From Eledone cirrhosa (Eukaryota): a stretch of 64,000 nt of DNA. The notes under the pieces are model-generated. The model did not search any database. It saw only the letters and a program-made list of their open reading frames with translations, and was not told the DNA's origin. The position numbers and the translations under genes are program-made. This document shows positions 41,360 through 63,794 of the stretch, in pieces (positions within the stretch are counted from its first letter, which is position 1; each line of letters opens with the position of its first letter). The stretch covers positions 3,348,001 to 3,412,000 of the forward strand of contig OZ024757.1 of assembly GCA_964016885.1 (NCBI GenBank), in the 5' to 3' direction.

Positions 41360-43244
41360 CTACAGATGTTTGGTATGTATGTGGAGTTGGAGTCGGAGTT
41401 TTCACCAGAAAGCTCAGCATAGATGACTGTTTTGTTTGCTTTTTTTTCTCATCATAAATTTAACGATAGCAACGTAGTCCATCTTCCAAATGTCTTTGAA
41501 ATTTTGCCAAGCGTTCAATGTTAGGATCCATTGCCTCCAATCCTGACATCGCCTTACACATATACGTGAATACTTCCGCCAAGCCCTTAACAGTGAACTT
41601 TTTCTGTTCTTCATCTGGTTGTTCTGCTGCTTCTTCCAACTCTTCTCTATGTCGCTGCTCTTCCAACTCTATTAAATCTTCGTCAGTCAACTCTCCTTCA
41701 ACAAAATTCACTAAATTTTCCACATCTTGCGCATTCTCTTCCAACCGCAACTTTTGAGCAAGACCAACAATTTTATTACTTATCACTTCAAAATCAGAAT
41801 TTTTATCAAAACCTTCAAAATTATTAACAAACTTTTTCAAGTACTTTTTCCATACACCTTTCATACATTTTACACTCAGGTCCCGCCAAGCTCCGTCGAT
41901 GTTCTTGGTGCAGTTGACAATATTAAAATCTTTCCAAAATTCACGAAGATCCATTACGTCATCCTCCGTTGCTGTTACTACCTGCACAAAAGTAGTTCGT
42001 AAATAATTGTTTCTACTTTTTGGCACAAGGCCAGCAATTACCCAGTGCATTACTGGTACTTTATTTTATCGACCCCGTAAGGATGAAAGGCAAAGTTAAC
42101 CTCGGCGGGATTTGAACTCAGAATGGCAAAGACCGTAACTCTATGCGTCAAAGCATGGCGTCCGACCCTCTACCGATACTGCCAATCCATCGCCCGTAGT
42201 TCGTAAATAATACGCATTGAAAGTAGATATCACCCCCTGGTCCATTGGTTGAAGAATTGACGTCGTATTTTTGAGCAGATACACTACTTTAACATTAGGA
42301 TGCAGGTCATCAATATGTTGGGCGCGGCCTGGGGCATTATCGGGGAGAAGTAGAATTTTGAAGGGAATGTTGTTTTCAAGGCAGTATTCCCTGGCTGAAG
42401 GTATAAAGTAGTTGATGAACCAGTTCTCGAACAAAGATTGCGTCATCCATACCTTGTTGTTTGCCCGATAAAACACTGGCAGCGTTTGTTCACGTTTATG
42501 CACGTGGGGTTTGGGAGCGATAAATAACAAATGGTTTCAACTTATGCCCCGCAACATTTCCGCCTAAAATCACTCGATCCTTGAATACCTTGAAGCCGGG
42601 CATACTTTTAGCCTCTTTGTGAAGATACGTTCTTTCAGGCATTTTTTTTCCAAAAGTGGCCAGTTTCGTCGACACTGAACATTTATTCCGGGCAATAGTC
42701 TCCTTCCTCAATAATCTTGTATAAAACATCGAGGAATGTTTTTGCTGCTTCCGTATCAGCACTTGCTGCTTCACCAGTAATGCGACGGTTGTGCAAATTA
42801 AATCGACGACGAAATTGCTGGAACCAACCGTGGCTTGCCGCAAACGTTTCAGTACACTCGTCTCCCTCACGTGACTTGAGTTTCTCGAAGATGCTGCGCG
42901 CCTTGCTTTGAATAATATGAAGACTCATTGGCATTCGTTTGGCTATTTGGTCATCAAACCACATGGTCAACAATTTCTCCATTTCATGTATCAGGCCTTT
43001 TCGCTGTCTTGTTATCAAAGCATTGTATCCCGTTGTGTTCTTGACCGTCTCCTTCACTCGATCTTTGTCCTCGAGGATGGTAGATATAGTAGAACTTGCT
43101 AAGTTCATTCTAGCAGCAATTGCGTTCACTTTAACCTCCTTCTTCTTATTGTTTGATGATCTTCAGCTTTGTTTCTATATCAATGGATTTCCTTGACTTC
43201 TTGTGATAAGGTCCTGGTGTAGTACTGGGTATTGTTGCTGACAT
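41360..43244 (-). pseudogene. Tigger1/TIGD1-like transposase pseudogene (CENP-B-type HTH domains plus DD32D)
   Basis: Consecutive ORF pieces: MSATIPS..RKSIDIETKLKIIKQ, FAASHGWFQQFRRRFNL, VDETG, LLLPDNAPG, SILQPMDQGVI (32 residues between D2 and D3). Contains premature stops, frameshifts and a SINE insertion. The 3' end coordinate is approximate. Confidence 0.93.
42008..42195 (-). mobile_element. tRNA-derived SINE inserted into the transposase, with a 16-bp TSD
   Basis: TSD GTAGTTCGTAAATAAT at 41992-42007 and 42196-42211. A-box-like TGGCAGTATCGG and B-box GAGTTCAAATCC on the minus strand. Central domain GCCTTTCATCCTTACGGGGTCGATAAAATAAAGTACCAG. Confidence 0.95.
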
Positions 43245-43796
43245 CTTGAGGGATATAACGGTATCGAAACGAAAACATACTTGGTAACTTCTTGTGTTCA
43301 GTGAATACACTCGAATGACGCTGCGAAAGGAGATGAGCTGGAGGCTGCTCAGCACTGCCGGTTGCCTCAGCCCAACTTATCGTACACAACTGCGTTCACT
43401 TTCACTCACAACTGTGCTGTCACTCTTCTCTGCGGGATATTGTCGTTGAACGAATATATTATTGACGAGTCAACGAATCGTAATTTCGAGAGATTTTTGT
43501 TAAACTAATGTATGTAATTCGTGAAGTTGTTCGTAACTCCGAGAGATCGTTAAACGAGTAGATTGTTAAATGAGGAGTACCTGTATATATACTGTATATA
43601 TACACAATGATATTAAATAAATGGAAACTATATTTATAAAACCATATTTATTTTATTATATATATTTCAAGGGTAACCAAGACAACATTGGTACACTTTC
43701 ATAAAAATCATACCTAATCGGTTGGAAATTCAGTGAATTTCCAACCGATAAGGTATGATTTTCATGGGTATGTCTCTATTTATAAAACAAACTTTG

Positions 43797-43850
43797 TATT
43801 TTATCTGATGAAAGCGTACCAATGTTGTCTTGGTACCCTTGAAATATATA
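43797..43850 (+). ncRNA. Type-I hammerhead ribozyme motif, interrupted (3' strand of stem I displaced to 45235-45242)
   Basis: TATTTTAT-CTGATGA-AAGCGTACCAA(tgttgtc)TTGGTACCCTT-GAAA-(TA)n...TA-ATAAAATA. The uninterrupted 3' half is seen in the inverted left arm. Confidence 0.65.
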
Positions 43851-43855
43851 TATAT

Positions 43856-44300
43856 ATGAATGTATATATAGTATATTTTGCAATACACTGTATGCTTAAT
43901 AAAAAGCATTTTGAAGACCTTATGCTATTGTTTTAGAGTAGTGACAGACTCACTTACTTTAATTTCAGCAAACAGGGGGAGATAAAGCTGACAAGGCCTT
44001 GTTTCTGCATTTATTGATGCTTATCAAAGCCAACTACTCCTCCCGTTTGCTGAGAACCTGGATGTTTTGGTTCTTATAGAATTCTAGTAAATAATCAGGA
44101 ACTGATTATTTACTAGAATTCTATAAGAACCAAAGCATCAATAAATGCAGAAACAAGGCCTTGTCAGCTTTATCTCCCCCTCTTTGCTGGAATTAAAGTA
44201 AGTGAGTCTGTCACTACTCTAAAACAATAGCATAAGGTCTTCAAAATGCTTTTTATTAAGCATACAGGGTATTGCAAAATACACTATATATACATTCATA
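43856..44300. mobile_element. Fold-back element B (~445-bp quasi-palindrome)
   Basis: Arms of ~165 bp (43856-44022 / 44133-44300), a perfect 33-bp inner stem at 44066-44134 with a 3-nt loop, and a ~43-nt unpaired segment. Sits in (TA)n. Confidence 0.85.
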
Positions 44301-44327
44301 TATATATAGCTATTTCAGAGCAACAAT

Positions 44328-45228
44328 TCTAATATATATATATATATATATATAAAACTGAGGATGTCTGTCTGTGTGTGTGTGAGTTCGAATCCCTAAA
44401 TCTCGAGAACCACCAAACTGACTGTTTTCAAACTTTACACATATAATACTTATGGTCCTGTGAGTGTTCTGAGGAAAGATAATTTCAAATTTTCCATGCC
44501 CTAGGGACCACATTAGGCGATTTAGCGATCTCGCACTATAATCCTTAGTCTTTCTCTTTTTAGATAGATACATACATATAACGCCGTGCCCTTGTAATAT
44601 CTGTCTGTATGTCTGAGTGTCTGCATTACGTCACTTCCCTGAGGATGTCTGTGTGTGTGTGTGTGTGTGTCTGTGAGTTTTAATCCCTAAAACCCGAGAA
44701 GTACCCAACCGATTTTTTTCAAACTTTACATGTGTATTACTTATGTTTCCCGGGGTGTTATGCACATGAAAAAATTCAATTTTTTTATCTTCTAGGGCTC
44801 GCATTAAGTGAAAAACTGCGTTTTTTCAGGTTTTTAGGGTTTTTTTGAGGCGTTACGTCAGACCGATTTCCTTGAAATTGTAACTATGTATTAGTCAGTC
44901 TCTTCTTCATACCGTAAGCAAAGAAAATTAAACTTTCTTATGGCCTAGGGCTCGCATTAGGTGAAAAACTTTCTTTTTTCAGCTTCTTAAAGGCATATAT
45001 GTGCAGATAAAAAAATTCATTTTCTTGATCCCCCAGGGCCCGCATTAGGTGAAAACCTGCATTTTTCCTGTTTTATCGAGGAAAATCTTAAAGAGTATCC
45101 AGCAATCAAAGTATTCGGTTTATTTTATTTACATATTGTCCAGGCATGCAGTTTTTCCAGGATTAGGTATGTTGGCGGCCCGGGTTACAAAATAACTTAT
45201 CCCGTGCAACGCCGGGTACCACTGCTTG
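44328..45228 (+). mobile_element. Non-autonomous Helitron-like element 1
   Basis: 5' TC(TA)n-AAAACTGAGGATGTCTGTCTGTG. 3' hairpin CCCGTGCAACGCCGGG followed by CTTG|T (degenerate CTAG). The 5' segment is duplicated internally (~44357 and ~44639), with short repeats TAGGGCTCGCATTA. Confidence 0.7.
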
Positions 45229-49541: not shown

Positions 49542-49996
49542 GGTGGCTGCCAACTCGTTTTCGAGTACGGCCACTACTTTATATCCATGTAGGAGAACTC
49601 CTACCGATGCGCTGAACGAGTGTGACTTTTTAGTCCAGCCAGCGACTTGAAAACTCTGGTACAAACACTACACTTGTGACAATTATTGACACATAGCGCT
49701 GGGCCCATGGTACCATGTGATGACAAGTGCAGAGAGATCTCCAGATATAAAGCAATGCCTGTGCCGTGAAGCTTTTATAGTGAGCAAAGGCACTGCACAA
49801 AGCCAGTCCCACTCTCTTAACCAAGATGATATTTACCAAAAAGAAGAACAAGTCAACATCATTGGATACCATCAGGGTTACAGGTGTTATATCAGAGTTT
49901 TCCTTCTTCTAGAATTCTGCCTTGACAAAGGCTAAGGGGTCATCTCTCCTGGTGATTTTGGATGGCCATACATACCATAGATACATACATGCATAC

Positions 49997-51167
49997 ATAT
50001 TCTATCGGAGGTATCTTACTTGATATTCTATCGGAGGTATCTTACTGACCTCTACCAACAAGTTCTTAAGGGAGATACACTTATACCAGAATGGTTGACA
50101 TTAGCACAAACATTACTGGTCCCCAAGAATAAAGACACCCACTTGGCAAAAAACTACCGACCCATTGCATGCCAGAACTTGATGTATAAGATGTATACAG
50201 CCTGCCTGAACCTATTCCTCCAAGATCACAGTGAAAATAATAACATCATCACAGCAGCTGGAAAGAAAAGGGTTTGGGGATGTGCTGAACAACTCCTAAT
50301 CAACAAAACTGCGATGTCGTAGGTGCGACAACTTAGGAGGAATATGACTACAGTCTGACTGGACTACAGGAAAGCTTTCAATTCTGTTCCCCACTCTTGG
50401 ATGATAGAGGCCTTCCAACTTGCTAAAGTCCCAGACATTATTGTTAGAGCCATAGAGAGGCTGTCATGGATACATACATACATGAGACACGATGGGATAG
50501 CTAGAACCATCTGGAACGCACTTCGGAAAACAAAATTAACAACAAACGAGGAAGAATATATTGAGACAGATGGCACTAAGGAATACTGGTGGAACCTGAA
50601 AATAAAAACTGCCACCAAATTAAAGCACAACCGGCCTGATATTGTTGTTTGGGACCACACATTGTAAATGTGTTCTGTTGTGGAGATCAGCTGCCCGCTT
50701 GAGGTAAACGTTGTCAGAAAAATACAGGAGAAGGAGGACACCTATGGACCATTGATGAGGAGTTTACAAATCCAGTATCCAAGATGCATCTTTAGCTTCT
50801 TACCCATCATTATTGGAGCTACGGGTTACATACCAACCGGCTTGGACCAATGTATAACTGAACTTGGATTTGCGGACAAAGAGCGCAGCTCCCTATTTCA
50901 TAGTCTACAAATGGCTGCGATAGCTGGCACCTTCAAAATTTGCAAAACATTTTTGCGATTCAAGGGATGACAATTTCTTTTCATTTACAACTTTGCCACC
51001 AGGAAGGTGGCCGGTCAAAAATATACTCGAAATTAAGAGAAAGAGATACATGCATATATGAATGCCTACAAATATATATAAATACATACATACATTATGA
51101 ATACATATATATATGTGAATAACGCTATGCTGGAGCACCAATACTAATTAAAAACAACAACAACAAA
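49997..51167 (+). mobile_element. R4/Dong-like non-LTR retrotransposon remnant (RT N-terminal part plus restriction-like endonuclease), internally deleted
   Basis: RT motifs PEWLT..TLLVPK..NYRPIAC..YK and DYRKAFNSVPHSW are joined to RLE motifs RHDGIA..W, HNRPDIVVWD..VEISCP..KEDTY. In-frame stops are present, the ORF ends at 50970, and there is an (AAC)n tail at ~51150-51167. Confidence 0.85.
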
Positions 51168-51896: not shown

Positions 51897-52783
51897 ATGT
51901 ATGTATGTATTTCAGTCTAGATATCTACAATGTGTATATAGTTAATGTATACACATATATATATGTGTGTGTGTATGTGTGCGTGTGCGTGCATGTATGA
52001 TATATATTTATAATATATATATACATTATATATATTATATTCTGTGTATATATTATATATACTCTATATACAGTATGTACTGTGTGTATACTGTATATAC
52101 TGTGTCTATGCTGTGTATATACTGTATATTATGTGTGTATATTGTATATACTGCATGTTCTGCGTATACTGTGTATAAATGCAAATCTTTCGAAATAATG
52201 TAAACATTTAGACGCCATTTTGTTTATGTGTAACCCGATCGAGGGAACGTTTCATGTTTTTCACAAGACACACCTCAAACAGACGCGGTCATGTTGAATC
52301 TGAGTTAAGTATTGTCGGTCCCTCGGTATAGTTTGTAACTATTTCAGGTCACATAGCGTTCACACCAACTACTCATACAAAATGGTGAAATTTGTAAATA
52401 TTTGTTTTAAATTTGTTTTTCACTGCACGATTCAATATTCCTGATTTGTGGATGTCTGTGTACGTGCACGATATATATATATACTATCTCTCTCTGTGTG
52501 TCTGTGTGTGTGTGTGTTTGTGTATGTGTGTTTATACATATATATGTATAAATTCATATATATAAGTATGTATGTAGATATATACGTATGTATGAATTTA
52601 TATATACGTACTTATATATATATATATATATATATATTAAAGATTTAAACAAGATTCAATGATTACATCAAAGAATGAGTTTTACAGTAGATTGGAAGCA
52701 CTCTACAGAAAAAAATATTTTTCCAGAGTTATTAATATTAAAATACAAATATTAATAAAATAGATGTTCTTTTGATCAATTAA

Positions 52784-52836
52784 ATTTTATTATACATATT
52801 TCAGAGGTACAACAGTACGTCCTCATCAGACAAAAT
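52784..52836 (-). ncRNA. Minimal type-I hammerhead ribozyme motif (minus-strand copy)
   Basis: Reverse complement of 54031-54083. Confidence 0.75.
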
Positions 52837-53413
52837 ATAATGATTCATGACATACCCTGAGATGTTAAAAGGTTTATTATATAAGATTAAAATCGTTATC
52901 ATTTGCCAAAAGTATACTGTATCACTAACACTTAGTATATCTCTCTATACCTAATTTTTAGATAACTTTAAAATTTTTAAATTATTTATTTTGAACTGTG
53001 AATAATTTATGCCTTTACACTCTTTTACATATATGTATCTATTTAACTTTAGCATGTTTGAATCTATTATTTTATATTCGTTATCATTTACCTAAAGTAT
53101 ACTGGCTCATTAATATTTAGTATATCTCTCTATACCTAATTTTTATTTTTGCAAATAAGTGTATCTGTATAATAACATAATCTTATTATTAGTTACGTAT
53201 ATCTCAGCTTTTGTTTTTTTTTGCATATATATATATAGTGTATAATAACATAATTACCGTTTTGGTTTAACGCTATATATAGTTTGTACAAATATATAGT
53301 TTGTGCAAATGTAGATATTTGTACAATAGCATATTTATTATTCCTATCATGAAAGTCGAACTTATATAGAAATTTAATATAATATAACAAATATTAATTT
53401 ATTACCATAATTC

Positions 53414-53448
<35 letters not shown>

Positions 53449-54030
53449 GTTGCTGAAAACTCTCCGTTAATCATTACACTAACTACTTGACAATTAATTT
53501 TTAGATATTTCTAACAATAAGTACTTCATAAGCTTTACATACCGAAAATGTTGACATTCTTATAGGTAATTTTCGTTAAAGCTTACATTTAGGAAAATAT
53601 TCAACAGTGTAAATTTTCCTTTAAAAAAAACCTAAAACTTTGATTCTTCACCCTTAAAATAACATAAATTAAATATTTTGAAACATAACCGTTTAGCCTT
53701 TAAAGGAAAACACATTTTTTTCTGCATATATTACTCCCCTTTATCTCTCTCTCTCTCTCTTTAAATCTTTTACCAGTGGCCTTCATAAACAGTTATAATT
53801 CAAGAGACGTTTTCCTAGATAACCATAACTTGTAGTATCTCACATGTTAAAATCTCTATTAATGTCACATTAAGCAACGTTTTTCTTACTCATACATCCT
53901 CTATTGAATTTATTACGTTTTCGCATTTTCTCATTATTAGGGTATAAATATTGAGTTTTCTCATAGGTTAATCACTACCTTGATTAAATCTTAACCATTT
54001 AACATCTCAGGGTATGTCATGTATCATTAT

Positions 54031-54083
54031 ATTTTGTCTGATGAGGACGTACTGTTGTACCTCTGAAATATGTATAATAAAAT
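54031..54083 (+). ncRNA. Minimal type-I hammerhead ribozyme motif
   Basis: Stem I ATTTTGT / CTGATGA / stem II GGACGTAC-tgtt-GTACCTCT / GAAA / quasi-palindromic stem III TATGTA / UH = TA / stem I' ATAAAAT. Confidence 0.75.
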
Positions 54084-54123: not shown

Positions 54124-54209
<86 letters not shown>

Positions 54210-59436: not shown

Positions 59437-60874
59437 TTAAACGTCACTGCTCTGTAGTGAAGATTCGTCAAATTTGATTCCTTTGTTCTTTAGATAGTCT
59501 ATAAACTTCTCCATGGAGACCTCCTCGTCGTCAAGGGCAGACAACCCATGCATGGACATTTCCTCCAGCGACTTACGAAGACTCACATTGCCACTACTGC
59601 TACTCCAGCTCAAGGCACTACAGCGTCTGGCCGTCTCGTTGTCACGTGACATCCGGCTGAGGGCGGCCACAGCCAAACTGCTAACTGCGTTCGAAGTGGC
59701 GATGGCAGCGGTGGAGGAAGTAGCGGTGTTGGTGGTAGTGGTGGTTTTGGTGATGTTAGGGGTAACGTTGGCAACGCCGCCGCTGCTGATAGCGGCGGCG
59801 GCGGTAATGTGCGGTGGTGGTTTGTCAACGGAGATGGCGCCACCGAGTTTTAACCCCGATGTCGTCGTCGACGTAGAGAGCGGCACCGATACCGTCACTA
59901 CCAATGGTTCGAAGCCGTTGCAGCTCTTGTCGTTGTCACGTGACTCATAGGAGGATTGTGGCGTGAGCACCGACTTCCGGTCTGCGGCGTTTAACAGGTT
60001 AGGTGACTCCGACACACTGGGAAAGAGGCAGTTGTCTGGCGTGCTCTGAATGCTCTCCTGGCCGCTACTTTGGGCCATCCAAGACATTTCTGACACGTCG
60101 CTTTCGTTGTGCGCATGCTTCGCTTTTTGGCGCCGTTTCAACATAAAAGGAAACTCTCGAAGACTACTGGAGAAGCTGAATTCTTTCCCCGATTCTAGGT
60201 TGGTGTCCCCTAACGACAGCGTATCGGCATCATCGTCGGCGCTTAGCAACGGAGATTTTTCACTTGCCAACGTGTTGCCTGGGATACAGTCAATGCAAGC
60301 TCCTTTAGGGGATTCCGACTGTGGAAGTGGCGCCATGGGGAAATGACGATTGGGTGGCATCGTTTCTTGGTTGCAGATGGCTTCGTTGGTTGAGAATGTT
60401 ACTATCTTATCGTTAAGGCCGCTGAAAAACGATTTTTCACCACTTTCAGCGTCCGATCCACCACCAATGTGGTTCCTTAGAAAAGCTAATAGCATTCCCA
60501 GGATCTCAGCATCCGTTTGGCAACCTGTGTCTTGTATGTGACCCGAACGCTTGCGAAGAATATTACTTTTCGGCTGCGACTCGTCCATAGAGTTCACATA
60601 TTTCGACACAATCATATTGTTAGCGCGTTCTCTCTCGCGAGACTCCGGTGCCGTTCCCACCTTGTCTTTCCAGGAACACGTCTGAGACGACGGGTTGAGT
60701 TTAGGGTAGGAGTGGGACCGGACGCCATCCTGTTTTAAATAACCCTGATTTGTAGGGTTTGAAATGCGACCCATGAGGGAAGGGTTTGGGCTTGGCGTTA
60801 GGCCACGTTTCTGAAGACCCCGCGTCTTCCATCGGTCTACGAGGCTCCGTTGACGTCTTTTGGTCAGCATGTCC
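59437..60874 (-). CDS. Large terminal coding exon of an unidentified gene; Ser/Thr/Ala-rich, probably disordered C-terminal region ending ...ESSLQSSDV
   Basis: 477-codon open frame with coding-like GC content in AT-rich surroundings. A polypyrimidine splice acceptor TTTTTCTCTTTGCAG|GGAC lies 4 nt upstream of the listed ATG, and the TAA stop is at 59437-59439. Confidence 0.85.
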
Positions 60875-61021
60875 CTGCAAAGAGAAAAATCGATAGATTA
60901 ATCAAAGGTAGTATAAATATATATAGGCTAAACGCTATATTATCTAGAGCTTCATTTATACAAATCATATTTAGGCGTAATATGTATAGTAAGCTTTGCA
61001 AACAAAAATATATTTTAAAAG

Positions 61022-61108
<87 letters not shown>

Positions 61109-61701
61109 TATAGATATATATGTTTCGAAGAGATTGTTTTGGTAAAAACAGGAGCAAGCAGGAGAAAGCTCTTAACATTCGTAGTTTATAGTTACGATGG
61201 AGATTCAGTATAATAATAACATTAATAAAGATGCTGATGTTACATAGATCGTTTATTCATTATAATTATTTCAACGGTTCTCCCATGCAATTAAGATGTA
61301 ATTCATGCATTTGTTGTTATGAGAACGGTATCCTCAGATGAAATTCTATTTTGTGATATGGAAAACACACGTCCTTCTGCTGGACGCGTAGAGAATAATA
61401 TGTGATAGCATATAATTACCAAATAGTCTCAGAATTAACTGTTATATATATATATATAGTAATTTTGCCGAAACCGGCCGATCCCTCGTTCGATCCTCTT
61501 CTAATATTTTCATAACCACCATGTTGTTTCCTACATACATATGAAGGATATCGCAACACACACATACATAAATACATAAATACATACACACACACACACA
61601 TACATAAATACATACATACATACACACATACATAAATACATACATACATACGCACATACACACAGCCATATATATACATATATACGCAAAAAATCGATCC
61701 G

Positions 61702-62305: not shown

Positions 62306-62533
62306 CAGAGAGAATAAGAAAATGCGAAGTAGTTTCAGATATTAAAGTCCTTTATTGATAAGGTTGTAATACATATTTCAATGACGACAGTGGCCACACC
62401 ATTTCGCCTAATCAGTGCCATGATCTCATCAGACACCTTCTTACATAATAAAGTTACGTTCCCGAGGCAATCTAAATTAAAACGAAAAAGGGAACCGCCA
62501 AAGATGATGTTTTTGAAGCCTTCACCCGTTCCC

Positions 62534-63410: not shown

Positions 63411-63794
63411 ATAGGTTCTACAACCATGACAAAACCTGTTATGTCTTCGTTACAGTACTGGTCTTAAAAATAATAGTTAAACTCGTCCCGTGGACTTGAG
63501 TTGCTCTACTTCATGGATAACCATACCAACTTATTACTAATATATATATATATATATGCATATATATATATATATAATATATAAGATCAAAAGATGGTTA
63601 AATGAGTTCCATGTATTTTATTATGCGCATTTCAAAAACAAATATCATCATGCAATAACATTTGTGTTTTCATCAGATAAAATAGGAAGACATGATATGA
63701 AGGTTAAAAACACTTGTGGATAGTGCAGTTTTAAATCAACATATCTTATCCTATATCTGCATTGCTTTATTGTACTACAATAAAACTCACCTCC

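What the first reader, a model, noticed from the sequence alone, without database searches (positions are those of the whole stretch)
43766..43850. Second, diverged hammerhead shows stem covariation with the 54031 copy
Seen: the 43797 and 54031 motifs share an upstream GGGTATGTC, stem I TATTTTRT/ATAAAAT, CTGATGA, GAAATAT and a C-C mismatch at stem II position 4. The first three stem II pairs differ in a compensatory way (A-U, A-U, G-C versus G-U, G-C, A-U), and stem length also differs. Inference: RNA structure has been selected across subfamilies, and the retained C-C mismatch and GGGTATGTC may mark a tertiary contact or a protein recognition site.
Basis: partly seen in the sequence, partly recalled or inferred. 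Interest (0 to 1): 0.75.

Follow-up and report, generated by a model that had tools for sequence, protein, structure and literature searches.

The report
Broken Penelope hammerhead with conserved mismatch
This is a broken copy of a predicted self-cutting RNA motif carried by a known kind of animal jumping gene, present tens of thousands of times in this genome; its relatives change the paired letters around one unpaired cytosine but keep that cytosine, which is likely a contact point.

Summary
Partly confirmed. The shared upstream motif, core, C·C mismatch and compensatory stem II pairs are real, but the 43766 copy has no stem I 3' strand: a younger repeat cut it inside stem III. Both motifs are type I hammerheads in the pseudo-LTRs of Hydra-clade Penelope-like retrotransposons: about 78,000 cores in the genome, and intact elements with 735-745 aa RT/GIY-YIG-type ORFs. 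Across 42 haplotypes, the four strongest covarying column pairs are stem II pairs (tree-aware E 0.005, 0.005, 0.10, 0.17). Position 4 is C·C in about 86% of 51,282 cores and in three protein lineages about 0.9 or more changes per site apart; no amplified lineage that pairs it was found. The 5' C is the fixed partner; one amplified subfamily has C·A. GGGTATGTC is not a universal mark: only TAYGTC is kept, in one of two groups, 16-48 nt from the core, and it is not an obligatory splice donor. Covarying PLE hammerheads are published; I found no paper on this mismatch, but one key paper was not held. The scan noted this family elsewhere in this genome (e1-8670794). No RNA data; cleavage untested.

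The parts
43766..43774 (+). Upstream motif GGGTATGTC (conserved part TAYGTC)
43797..43804 (+). Stem I 5' strand; its 3' partner is missing in this copy
43805..43811 (+). Hammerhead core CUGAUGA
43812..43840 (+). Stem II with C·C mismatch at position 4 (43815/43837)
43841..43852 (+). GAAA and TA-repeat stem III, where the copy is broken off
43605..43702 (-). Inverted arm of the same insertion: stem II (U·C at position 4), stem III, stem I 3' strand and the short 3' end; 44 bp deleted between two ATG, removing the upstream motif, the stem I 5' strand and CTG
43847..44345 (.). Younger fold-back repeat (copies 98-100% identical) sitting in the stem III TA tract
54010..54083 (+). Complete hammerhead of a second subfamily: motif 54010, core 54038, stem II 54045-54064 with C·C (54048/54061), predicted cleavage after A54076, stem I 3' strand 54077-54083; arm ends at the short 3' end near 54129
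52637..52874 (-). Inverted twin of the 54010 motif (98.6%), core at 52829, carrying the long tail with the ACTC/GAGT hairpin
61258..61345 (-). Hammerhead-shaped motif of another family, long stem II, C·C at position 4, C-G at position 3
62360..62440 (-). Hammerhead-shaped motif of another family, C·C at position 4, U-A at position 3
63614..63684 (-). Hammerhead-shaped motif of another family, C·U at position 4, GC-palindromic stem III

Best explanation
The motif is a broken copy of a type I hammerhead in the pseudo-LTR of a Hydra-clade Penelope-like retrotransposon, whose intact relatives are predicted to cut their RNA as dimers and keep an unpaired cytosine in stem II that is likely a docking or protein contact. 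Shown: the motif sits 221-247 nt before the start codon and again after the ORF in full-length elements; most genomic copies are short 5'-truncated ends, often in inverted pairs, inserted in (TA)n; stem II pairs covary; the 5' C at position 4 is kept unpaired across lineages. Inferred: the 8-nt near-palindrome of stem III pairs between two copies to complete the active site; cleavage falls after AUA; selection acts on source elements, and inserted copies such as 43766 decay. Least certain (about 0.45): the unpaired C stands near where loop II begins in short hammerheads and contacts helix I or the element's own protein. TAYGTC most likely belongs to the outer end of an extended stem I or is a lineage-specific signal.
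For: L032 and L312 are pLTR-ORF-pLTR units. 16 of the 30 best N-terminus matches have a core within 330 nt upstream, among them copies of the 43766 subfamily (L229, L244, L239); 16 loci picked for long open frames hold 735-745 aa ORFs with DKT (16 of 16) and RWR, CxCX5C, LDIANYY, LYRDD (14 or 15 of 16 each) and YVGST. These run collinear, by eye, with the published Hydra-1_Obim protein. The 54010 subfamily lies downstream of a related ORF, 49-62% identical by piece (L266). Covariation. Mismatch counts. 21 of 22 distinct own-family hammerheads of intact elements have C·C. Other hammerhead families of this genome pair position 4. The dimer model and protein-assisted cleavage are published for other PLE hammerheads (PMC4209133, PMC11167929).
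Against: No cleavage, structure or expression data. No Rfam hammerhead model matches. Pfam does not call the intact ORFs RT or GIY-YIG; only one decayed piece reached GIY-YIG, E 1.5e-4, just under the cut-off. Predicted monomer folds often miss stem I. Paired G-C variants occur in both arms of several inverted pairs and one intact element has C-G in its 3' pLTR, so the mismatch is not needed for a copy to exist. Inverted arms cannot dimerise in cis. In the anole element, hammerhead cleavage was not needed for insertion in vitro (PMC11167929).
Confidence: 0.75

Rival explanations
1. Folding switch: the upstream GGUAYGUC pairs with the 5' strand of stem II, its G capturing the unpaired C, and holds the ribozyme off; the mismatch weakens stem II so that this helix can compete.
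For: The motif can form 6-8 pairs with that strand in most group A families, and its G faces C at position 4 in 169 of 186 copies; two U face the positions that vary A/G. In the window's 54038 copy predicted stem II probability is 0.14, against 1.0 if position 4 is paired in silico.
Against: No compensation was seen: changes at four of the eight facing positions break pairs unrepaired. Upstream complementarity beats shuffles in only 5 of 33 representatives. Group B families keep C·C without the motif. In many families stem II is predicted stable anyway.
Confidence: 0.12
2. The mismatch is only a brake or hinge: any unpaired position 4 would do, with no specific contact.
For: The 3' base is A in one amplified subfamily and U in another family. 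Pairing position 4 in silico raises or leaves unchanged the predicted stem II probability in all 33 representatives.
Against: The 5' base stays C in 40 of 42 haplotypes and 94% of 51,282 cores; a mere mismatch would allow U·U, A·C or A·A lineages, and none was seen amplified.
Confidence: 0.2
3. The C is conserved for a DNA-level or non-ribozyme reason (internal promoter, endonuclease or RT signal), or by shared descent alone.
For: PLE pLTRs hold internal promoters (PMC8557442, passages). All copies descend from one clade.
Against: The neighbours on both sides vary through three or four pair types while pairing is kept, over about 0.9 or more protein changes per site; a DNA site would keep its flanks, and neutral descent would not spare one column.
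Confidence: 0.1
4. GGGTATGTC is the 5' splice site of a pLTR intron that removes the hammerhead from the mRNA.
For: G|GTATGT fits the donor consensus (own knowledge); Penelope and Chlamys-3 have 5'-UTR introns (PMC8557442, passages).
Against: Amplified sublineages carry GATATGTC, GTTATGTC, GCTATGTC or AATATGTC (9,587 matches, part of them an upstream duplicate); group B lacks it; no acceptor is conserved downstream.
Confidence: 0.05

Closest known systems
Hydra clade of Penelope-like elements and their hammerheads (Craig et al. 2021, PMC8557442; passages, section 11 and supplement parts 1, 2, 52 plus searches read)
   Same: C-terminal GIY-YIG, RW[KR], DKT, CxCX5C, (TA)n targets, type I hammerhead near the 3' end, inverted 5'-truncated copies, tail on one arm; protein collinear with Hydra-1_Obim by eye.
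   Different: None of the Hydra hammerheads listed in File S2 shows a C·C at stem II position 4 (read by eye). Repeat unit is 3.7-4.1 kb, not under 3 kb; stem III is a TA palindrome; the tail is about 95 nt, not 30-40.
PLE minimal hammerheads (Cervera and de la Pena 2014, PMC4209133; parts 1-2 of 4 and supplement file 2 parts 1-2 read; file 1 not searchable)
   Same: [quoted passage not shown]
   Different: No unpaired base between 9 and 10.1, and no fixed G10.1-C11.1 (A-U 20, G·U 12, G-C 7 of 42). No C·C at position 4 among the 56 motifs of Fig. S3 read by eye; one sea urchin motif has C·A four pairs into its stem.
Poseidon element of Anolis (Frangieh et al. 2024, PMC11167929; parts 1-2 of 4 read)
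   Same: AT-rich targets, two 3' ends defining a tail, stem-loop downstream of the hammerhead.
   Different: There the ORF starts inside the hammerhead; here it starts about 240 nt downstream. Protein-assisted cleavage was shown there and is untested here.
Metazoan non-LTR retrozymes (PMC7229834, passages; bioRxiv 10.64898/2026.07.22.740005, parts 1-2 of 5)
   Same: Type I hammerhead, weak helix III, dimer-dependent cleavage in amphibians.
   Different: These copies are solo or inverted truncated ends of ORF-bearing elements, not tandem arrays of short non-coding units.

Membership tests
Type I hammerhead ribozyme | Core CUGANGA, GAAA, UH | tested here: met
Type I hammerhead ribozyme | Three helices around the core, family level and 54038/52829 copies | tested here: met
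Type I hammerhead ribozyme | Three helices in the 43766 copy itself | tested here: not met
   stem I 3' strand absent
Type I hammerhead ribozyme | Match to an Rfam hammerhead model | tested here: not met
   no hammerhead family among 141 matches at E<=5 or 120 at E<=10
Type I hammerhead ribozyme | Self-cleavage | not testable with these tools
   no assay; no RNA run listed
PLE minimal hammerhead (Cervera 2014) | Palindromic helix III suited to dimers | tested here: met
   both stem III forms self-pair, -2.2 and -3.2 kcal/mol predicted
PLE minimal hammerhead (Cervera 2014) | Unpaired base after A9 and conserved G10.1-C11.1 | tested here: not met
Hydra-clade PLE | Single ORF with RW[KR], DKT and CxCX5C | tested here: met
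   RWR in 15, DKT in 16, CxCX5C in 15 of 16 intact ORFs
Hydra-clade PLE | RT followed by C-terminal GIY-YIG | tested here: inconclusive
   motifs present and collinear with Hydra-1_Obim and weakly with a Pfam-called RT/GIY-YIG ORF; Pfam silent on intact ORFs
Hydra-clade PLE | Insertion into (TA)n, pLTRs, inverted truncated copies, tail at one end | tested here: met
Hydra-clade PLE | Generally under 3 kb | tested here: not met
   hammerhead-to-hammerhead distance 3.7-4.1 kb; a typical trait in the paper, not a strict criterion
Hydra-clade PLE | Placement inside the clade in a tree with published members | not tested
   published sequences were read but were not available to the tools
Non-LTR retrozyme | Tandem short non-coding units each with a hammerhead | tested here: not met
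Spliceosomal 5' splice site | Invariant GT and a conserved acceptor | tested here: not met

The most novel reading that the evidence does not exclude
This clade uses a new hammerhead control module: the unpaired C in stem II is the hinge of a switch, captured by an upstream GGUAYGUC strand in the nascent RNA and released on dimerisation or binding of the element's own protein, so that the retrotransposon times the cutting of its own template.
Probability: 0.15. Interest if true: 0.65.

Novelty: new variant of a known kind. Interest (0 to 1): 0.36.

Why it matters
What hammerheads do for Penelope-like elements is open. Here a natural series of tens of thousands of copies, with young intact elements, singles out one nucleotide outside the catalytic core as nearly invariant while its neighbours covary. 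That gives a precise mutant series for testing tertiary docking, protein assistance or attenuation. The locus itself is an ordinary dead copy.

Tried and rejected
Splice-donor reading of GGGTATGTC: rejected. Fixed tertiary contact between the motif and the mismatch: rejected on variable spacing and absence in group B. RNAalifold on 26 group A sequences recovers stem II with position 4 open but pairs the stem I 5' strand with GAAAUAUR instead of forming stems I and III, and gives the upstream motif no partner, so an outer stem I role for the motif is not shown. Expression: no RNA holder listed; three contig runs of unrecorded kind, one study, laid on L032:2070-5400, show no GT..AG joint among the joints listed, which is no evidence either way. 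Rfam, Pfam and PDB searches gave no useful match. The homologue search gave 320 proteins, best 40% identity, nearly all without a name; the named ones are hypothetical proteins of Argonauta hians. Insertion hot spot in stem III: not seen; none of the 9 irregular cases among 67 copies was cut by a TA run as here. Literature searches for 'C-C mismatch' with hammerhead and stem II or helix II found 0 papers; searches found nothing on this variant in their listings. Lunse et al. 2016 (PMC5785218), on PLE hammerhead variants, is not held and could describe it. My notebook gives the deletion in the inverted arm as 49 bp; the coordinates give 44.

Full report
Observation. Both motifs are in the sequence as described up to GAAATAT. 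The 54010 motif is a complete type I hammerhead shape: stem I of 7 pairs, core, stem II of 7 pairs plus a C·C at position 4, a 2-pair stem III inside an 8-nt near-palindrome, and AUA at the cleavage site. The 43766 motif stops in stem III. What follows is a fold-back repeat whose copies elsewhere are 98-100% identical, so it is young (2,227 candidates, 40 scored). The 43766 motif is one arm of an inverted pair centred near 43734; the other arm keeps the 3' half but has lost 44 bp between two ATG. Neither arm can fold a hammerhead. The 54010 motif has an inverted twin at 52829 with a longer tail.

Copy number. The window lies in a 3.0 Gb genome. The core pattern with CTGATGA has 51,282 matches (control 20) and with CTGA[ACG]GA 27,147 (control 156), about 78,000 together. 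Some matches are double counts or chance.

What carries it. Two direct copies 3,676 bp apart flank a frameshifted ORF (L032). Its N-terminus found 150 scored matches among 9,879 candidates. Of the 30 best, 16 have a core 221-247 nt upstream, including the 43766 subfamily. Sixteen loci chosen for long open frames hold ORFs of 735-745 aa with the motifs that Craig et al. give for the Hydra clade (section 11), most with a hammerhead at both ends. They run collinear with Hydra-1_Obim by eye. Pfam does not recognise them, which fits the divergent RT described for the clade but leaves RT and GIY-YIG resting on motifs. Most copies end at one of two sites before (TA)n, with the longer end usually on one arm of an inverted pair, as published for PLE tails (PMC11167929, PMC8557442).

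Covariation. From 264 distinct core matches in fetched loci and the window I dropped 6 (four chance or rearranged matches, one deletion, the broken window copy) and those with stems too short, collapsed the rest to 148 haplotypes and kept 42: 33 seen at least twice and 9 single members of rare families. Some repeats are two arms of one insertion. With a G-test, APC and a null that re-deals substitutions along the tree (200 runs; my own R-scape-like script), the four top column pairs are stem II pairs 6, 2, 5 and 3, E 0.005, 0.005, 0.10 and 0.17; the next best is E 2.2 and no stem I pair is significant. On 26 hand-picked group A sequences, 34 cells change on both sides against 11.7 in shuffles (0 of 500), slid controls reach at most 7, while two measures that count pairs or types do not beat the shuffles.

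The mismatch. Of 51,282 cores, 3,029 lack C on the 5' side and 3,897 have it but lack C on the 3' side, leaving about 44,350 (86%) C·C by subtraction. About half of the first 100, counted by eye, are one C·A subfamily, a sister of the 54010 motif. Paired G-C (312) is about as rare as A·C (277) under matched patterns and is scattered over families, as expected from mutation rather than amplification; C-G was not counted genome-wide. Among the 42 haplotypes: C·C 37, C·A 3, U·C 2, paired 0, although the sample was enriched for exceptions. C·C or C·A marks three protein lineages whose stem branches are 0.33, 0.53 and 0.75 changes per site; families with stem III ACCNNNGGU, about 30% identical in the endonuclease region, pair position 4 and lie apart. 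That tree has 25 rows, 9 under half filled, a drawing-only root, and three long rows that are probably ORF pieces of other nested elements, which I disregard. Three more families in the window show C·C or C·U at the same place with other flanks, and one (61791) pairs it. Against a strict need: G-C variants occur in both arms of several pairs, and one intact element has C-G in one pLTR.

The upstream motif. Exact GGGTATGTC is in 79 of 215 group A copies, TAYGTC in 180, and neither in 33 group B copies. Sublineages with A, T or C in place of the G before TATGTC are amplified, which removes the splice-donor reading. Spacing to the core is 16-48 nt. The motif is complementary to the 5' strand of stem II in many families, with G opposite the unpaired C, but never compensates and is significant in 5 of 33 representatives. 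I keep the switch as the bold minority reading.

Mechanism. Shown: element anatomy, copy number, covariation, conservation of the unpaired C. Inferred from published PLE hammerheads: dimer-dependent cleavage after AUA, perhaps protein-assisted. Inferred from position and asymmetry: the 5' C is a contact. That loop II starts after about four pairs in canonical hammerheads is from PMC4209133; helix I-II contacts are from passages of PMC6155905 and PMC3088659.

Novelty. PLE hammerheads with covarying families and Hydra elements are in print. The mismatch was not found in five searches or in the motif tables read, but Lunse et al. 2016 and one supplement file could not be seen. Verdict: real, a new variant of a known kind, modest interest; the locus itself is a dead copy.

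Noticed in passing
window 1-35853: 65-bp satellite, about 550 copies, about 87% matches.
   Followed up: no
window 43847-44345: Young fold-back repeat family with short head-to-tail units of about 320-350 bp in some loci, flanked by TA runs; retrozyme-like layout, no canonical hammerhead core seen.
   Followed up: partly
just 3' of the cleavage site, e.g. window 54076-54081: AATAAA lies within 35 nt after the cleavage site in 201 of 215 group A and 29 of 34 group B copies (shuffled means 36.6 and 3.7) and in 0 of 12 copies of families that pair position 4. Possible poly(A) signal or A-rich docking strand.
   Followed up: partly
window 52698-52729 (-); L032 tail: Tail hairpin ACTC/GAGT shared by groups A and B, with a second GCTC/GAGC copy before the start codon; a similar stretch ends the published Hydra-2_Amil consensus. 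Candidate RT start signal.
   Followed up: partly
window 61791 (+): Hammerhead-shaped motif with U·U at stem II position 1 and a paired position 4.
   Followed up: no
window 41460-43162 (-): Broken Tc5/Tigger-type transposase (HTH_Tnp_Tc5, E 1e-13).
   Followed up: no
window 59437-60897 (-): 486-codon open frame, no Pfam match; could be a host exon.
   Followed up: no
window 49981-50970 (+): ORF pieces that read like a non-LTR retrotransposon RT and C-terminal domain (by eye; Pfam silent).
   Followed up: no
L250-L265: Many full-length elements with open ORFs and identical or near-identical pLTRs, so the family is young.
   Followed up: partly
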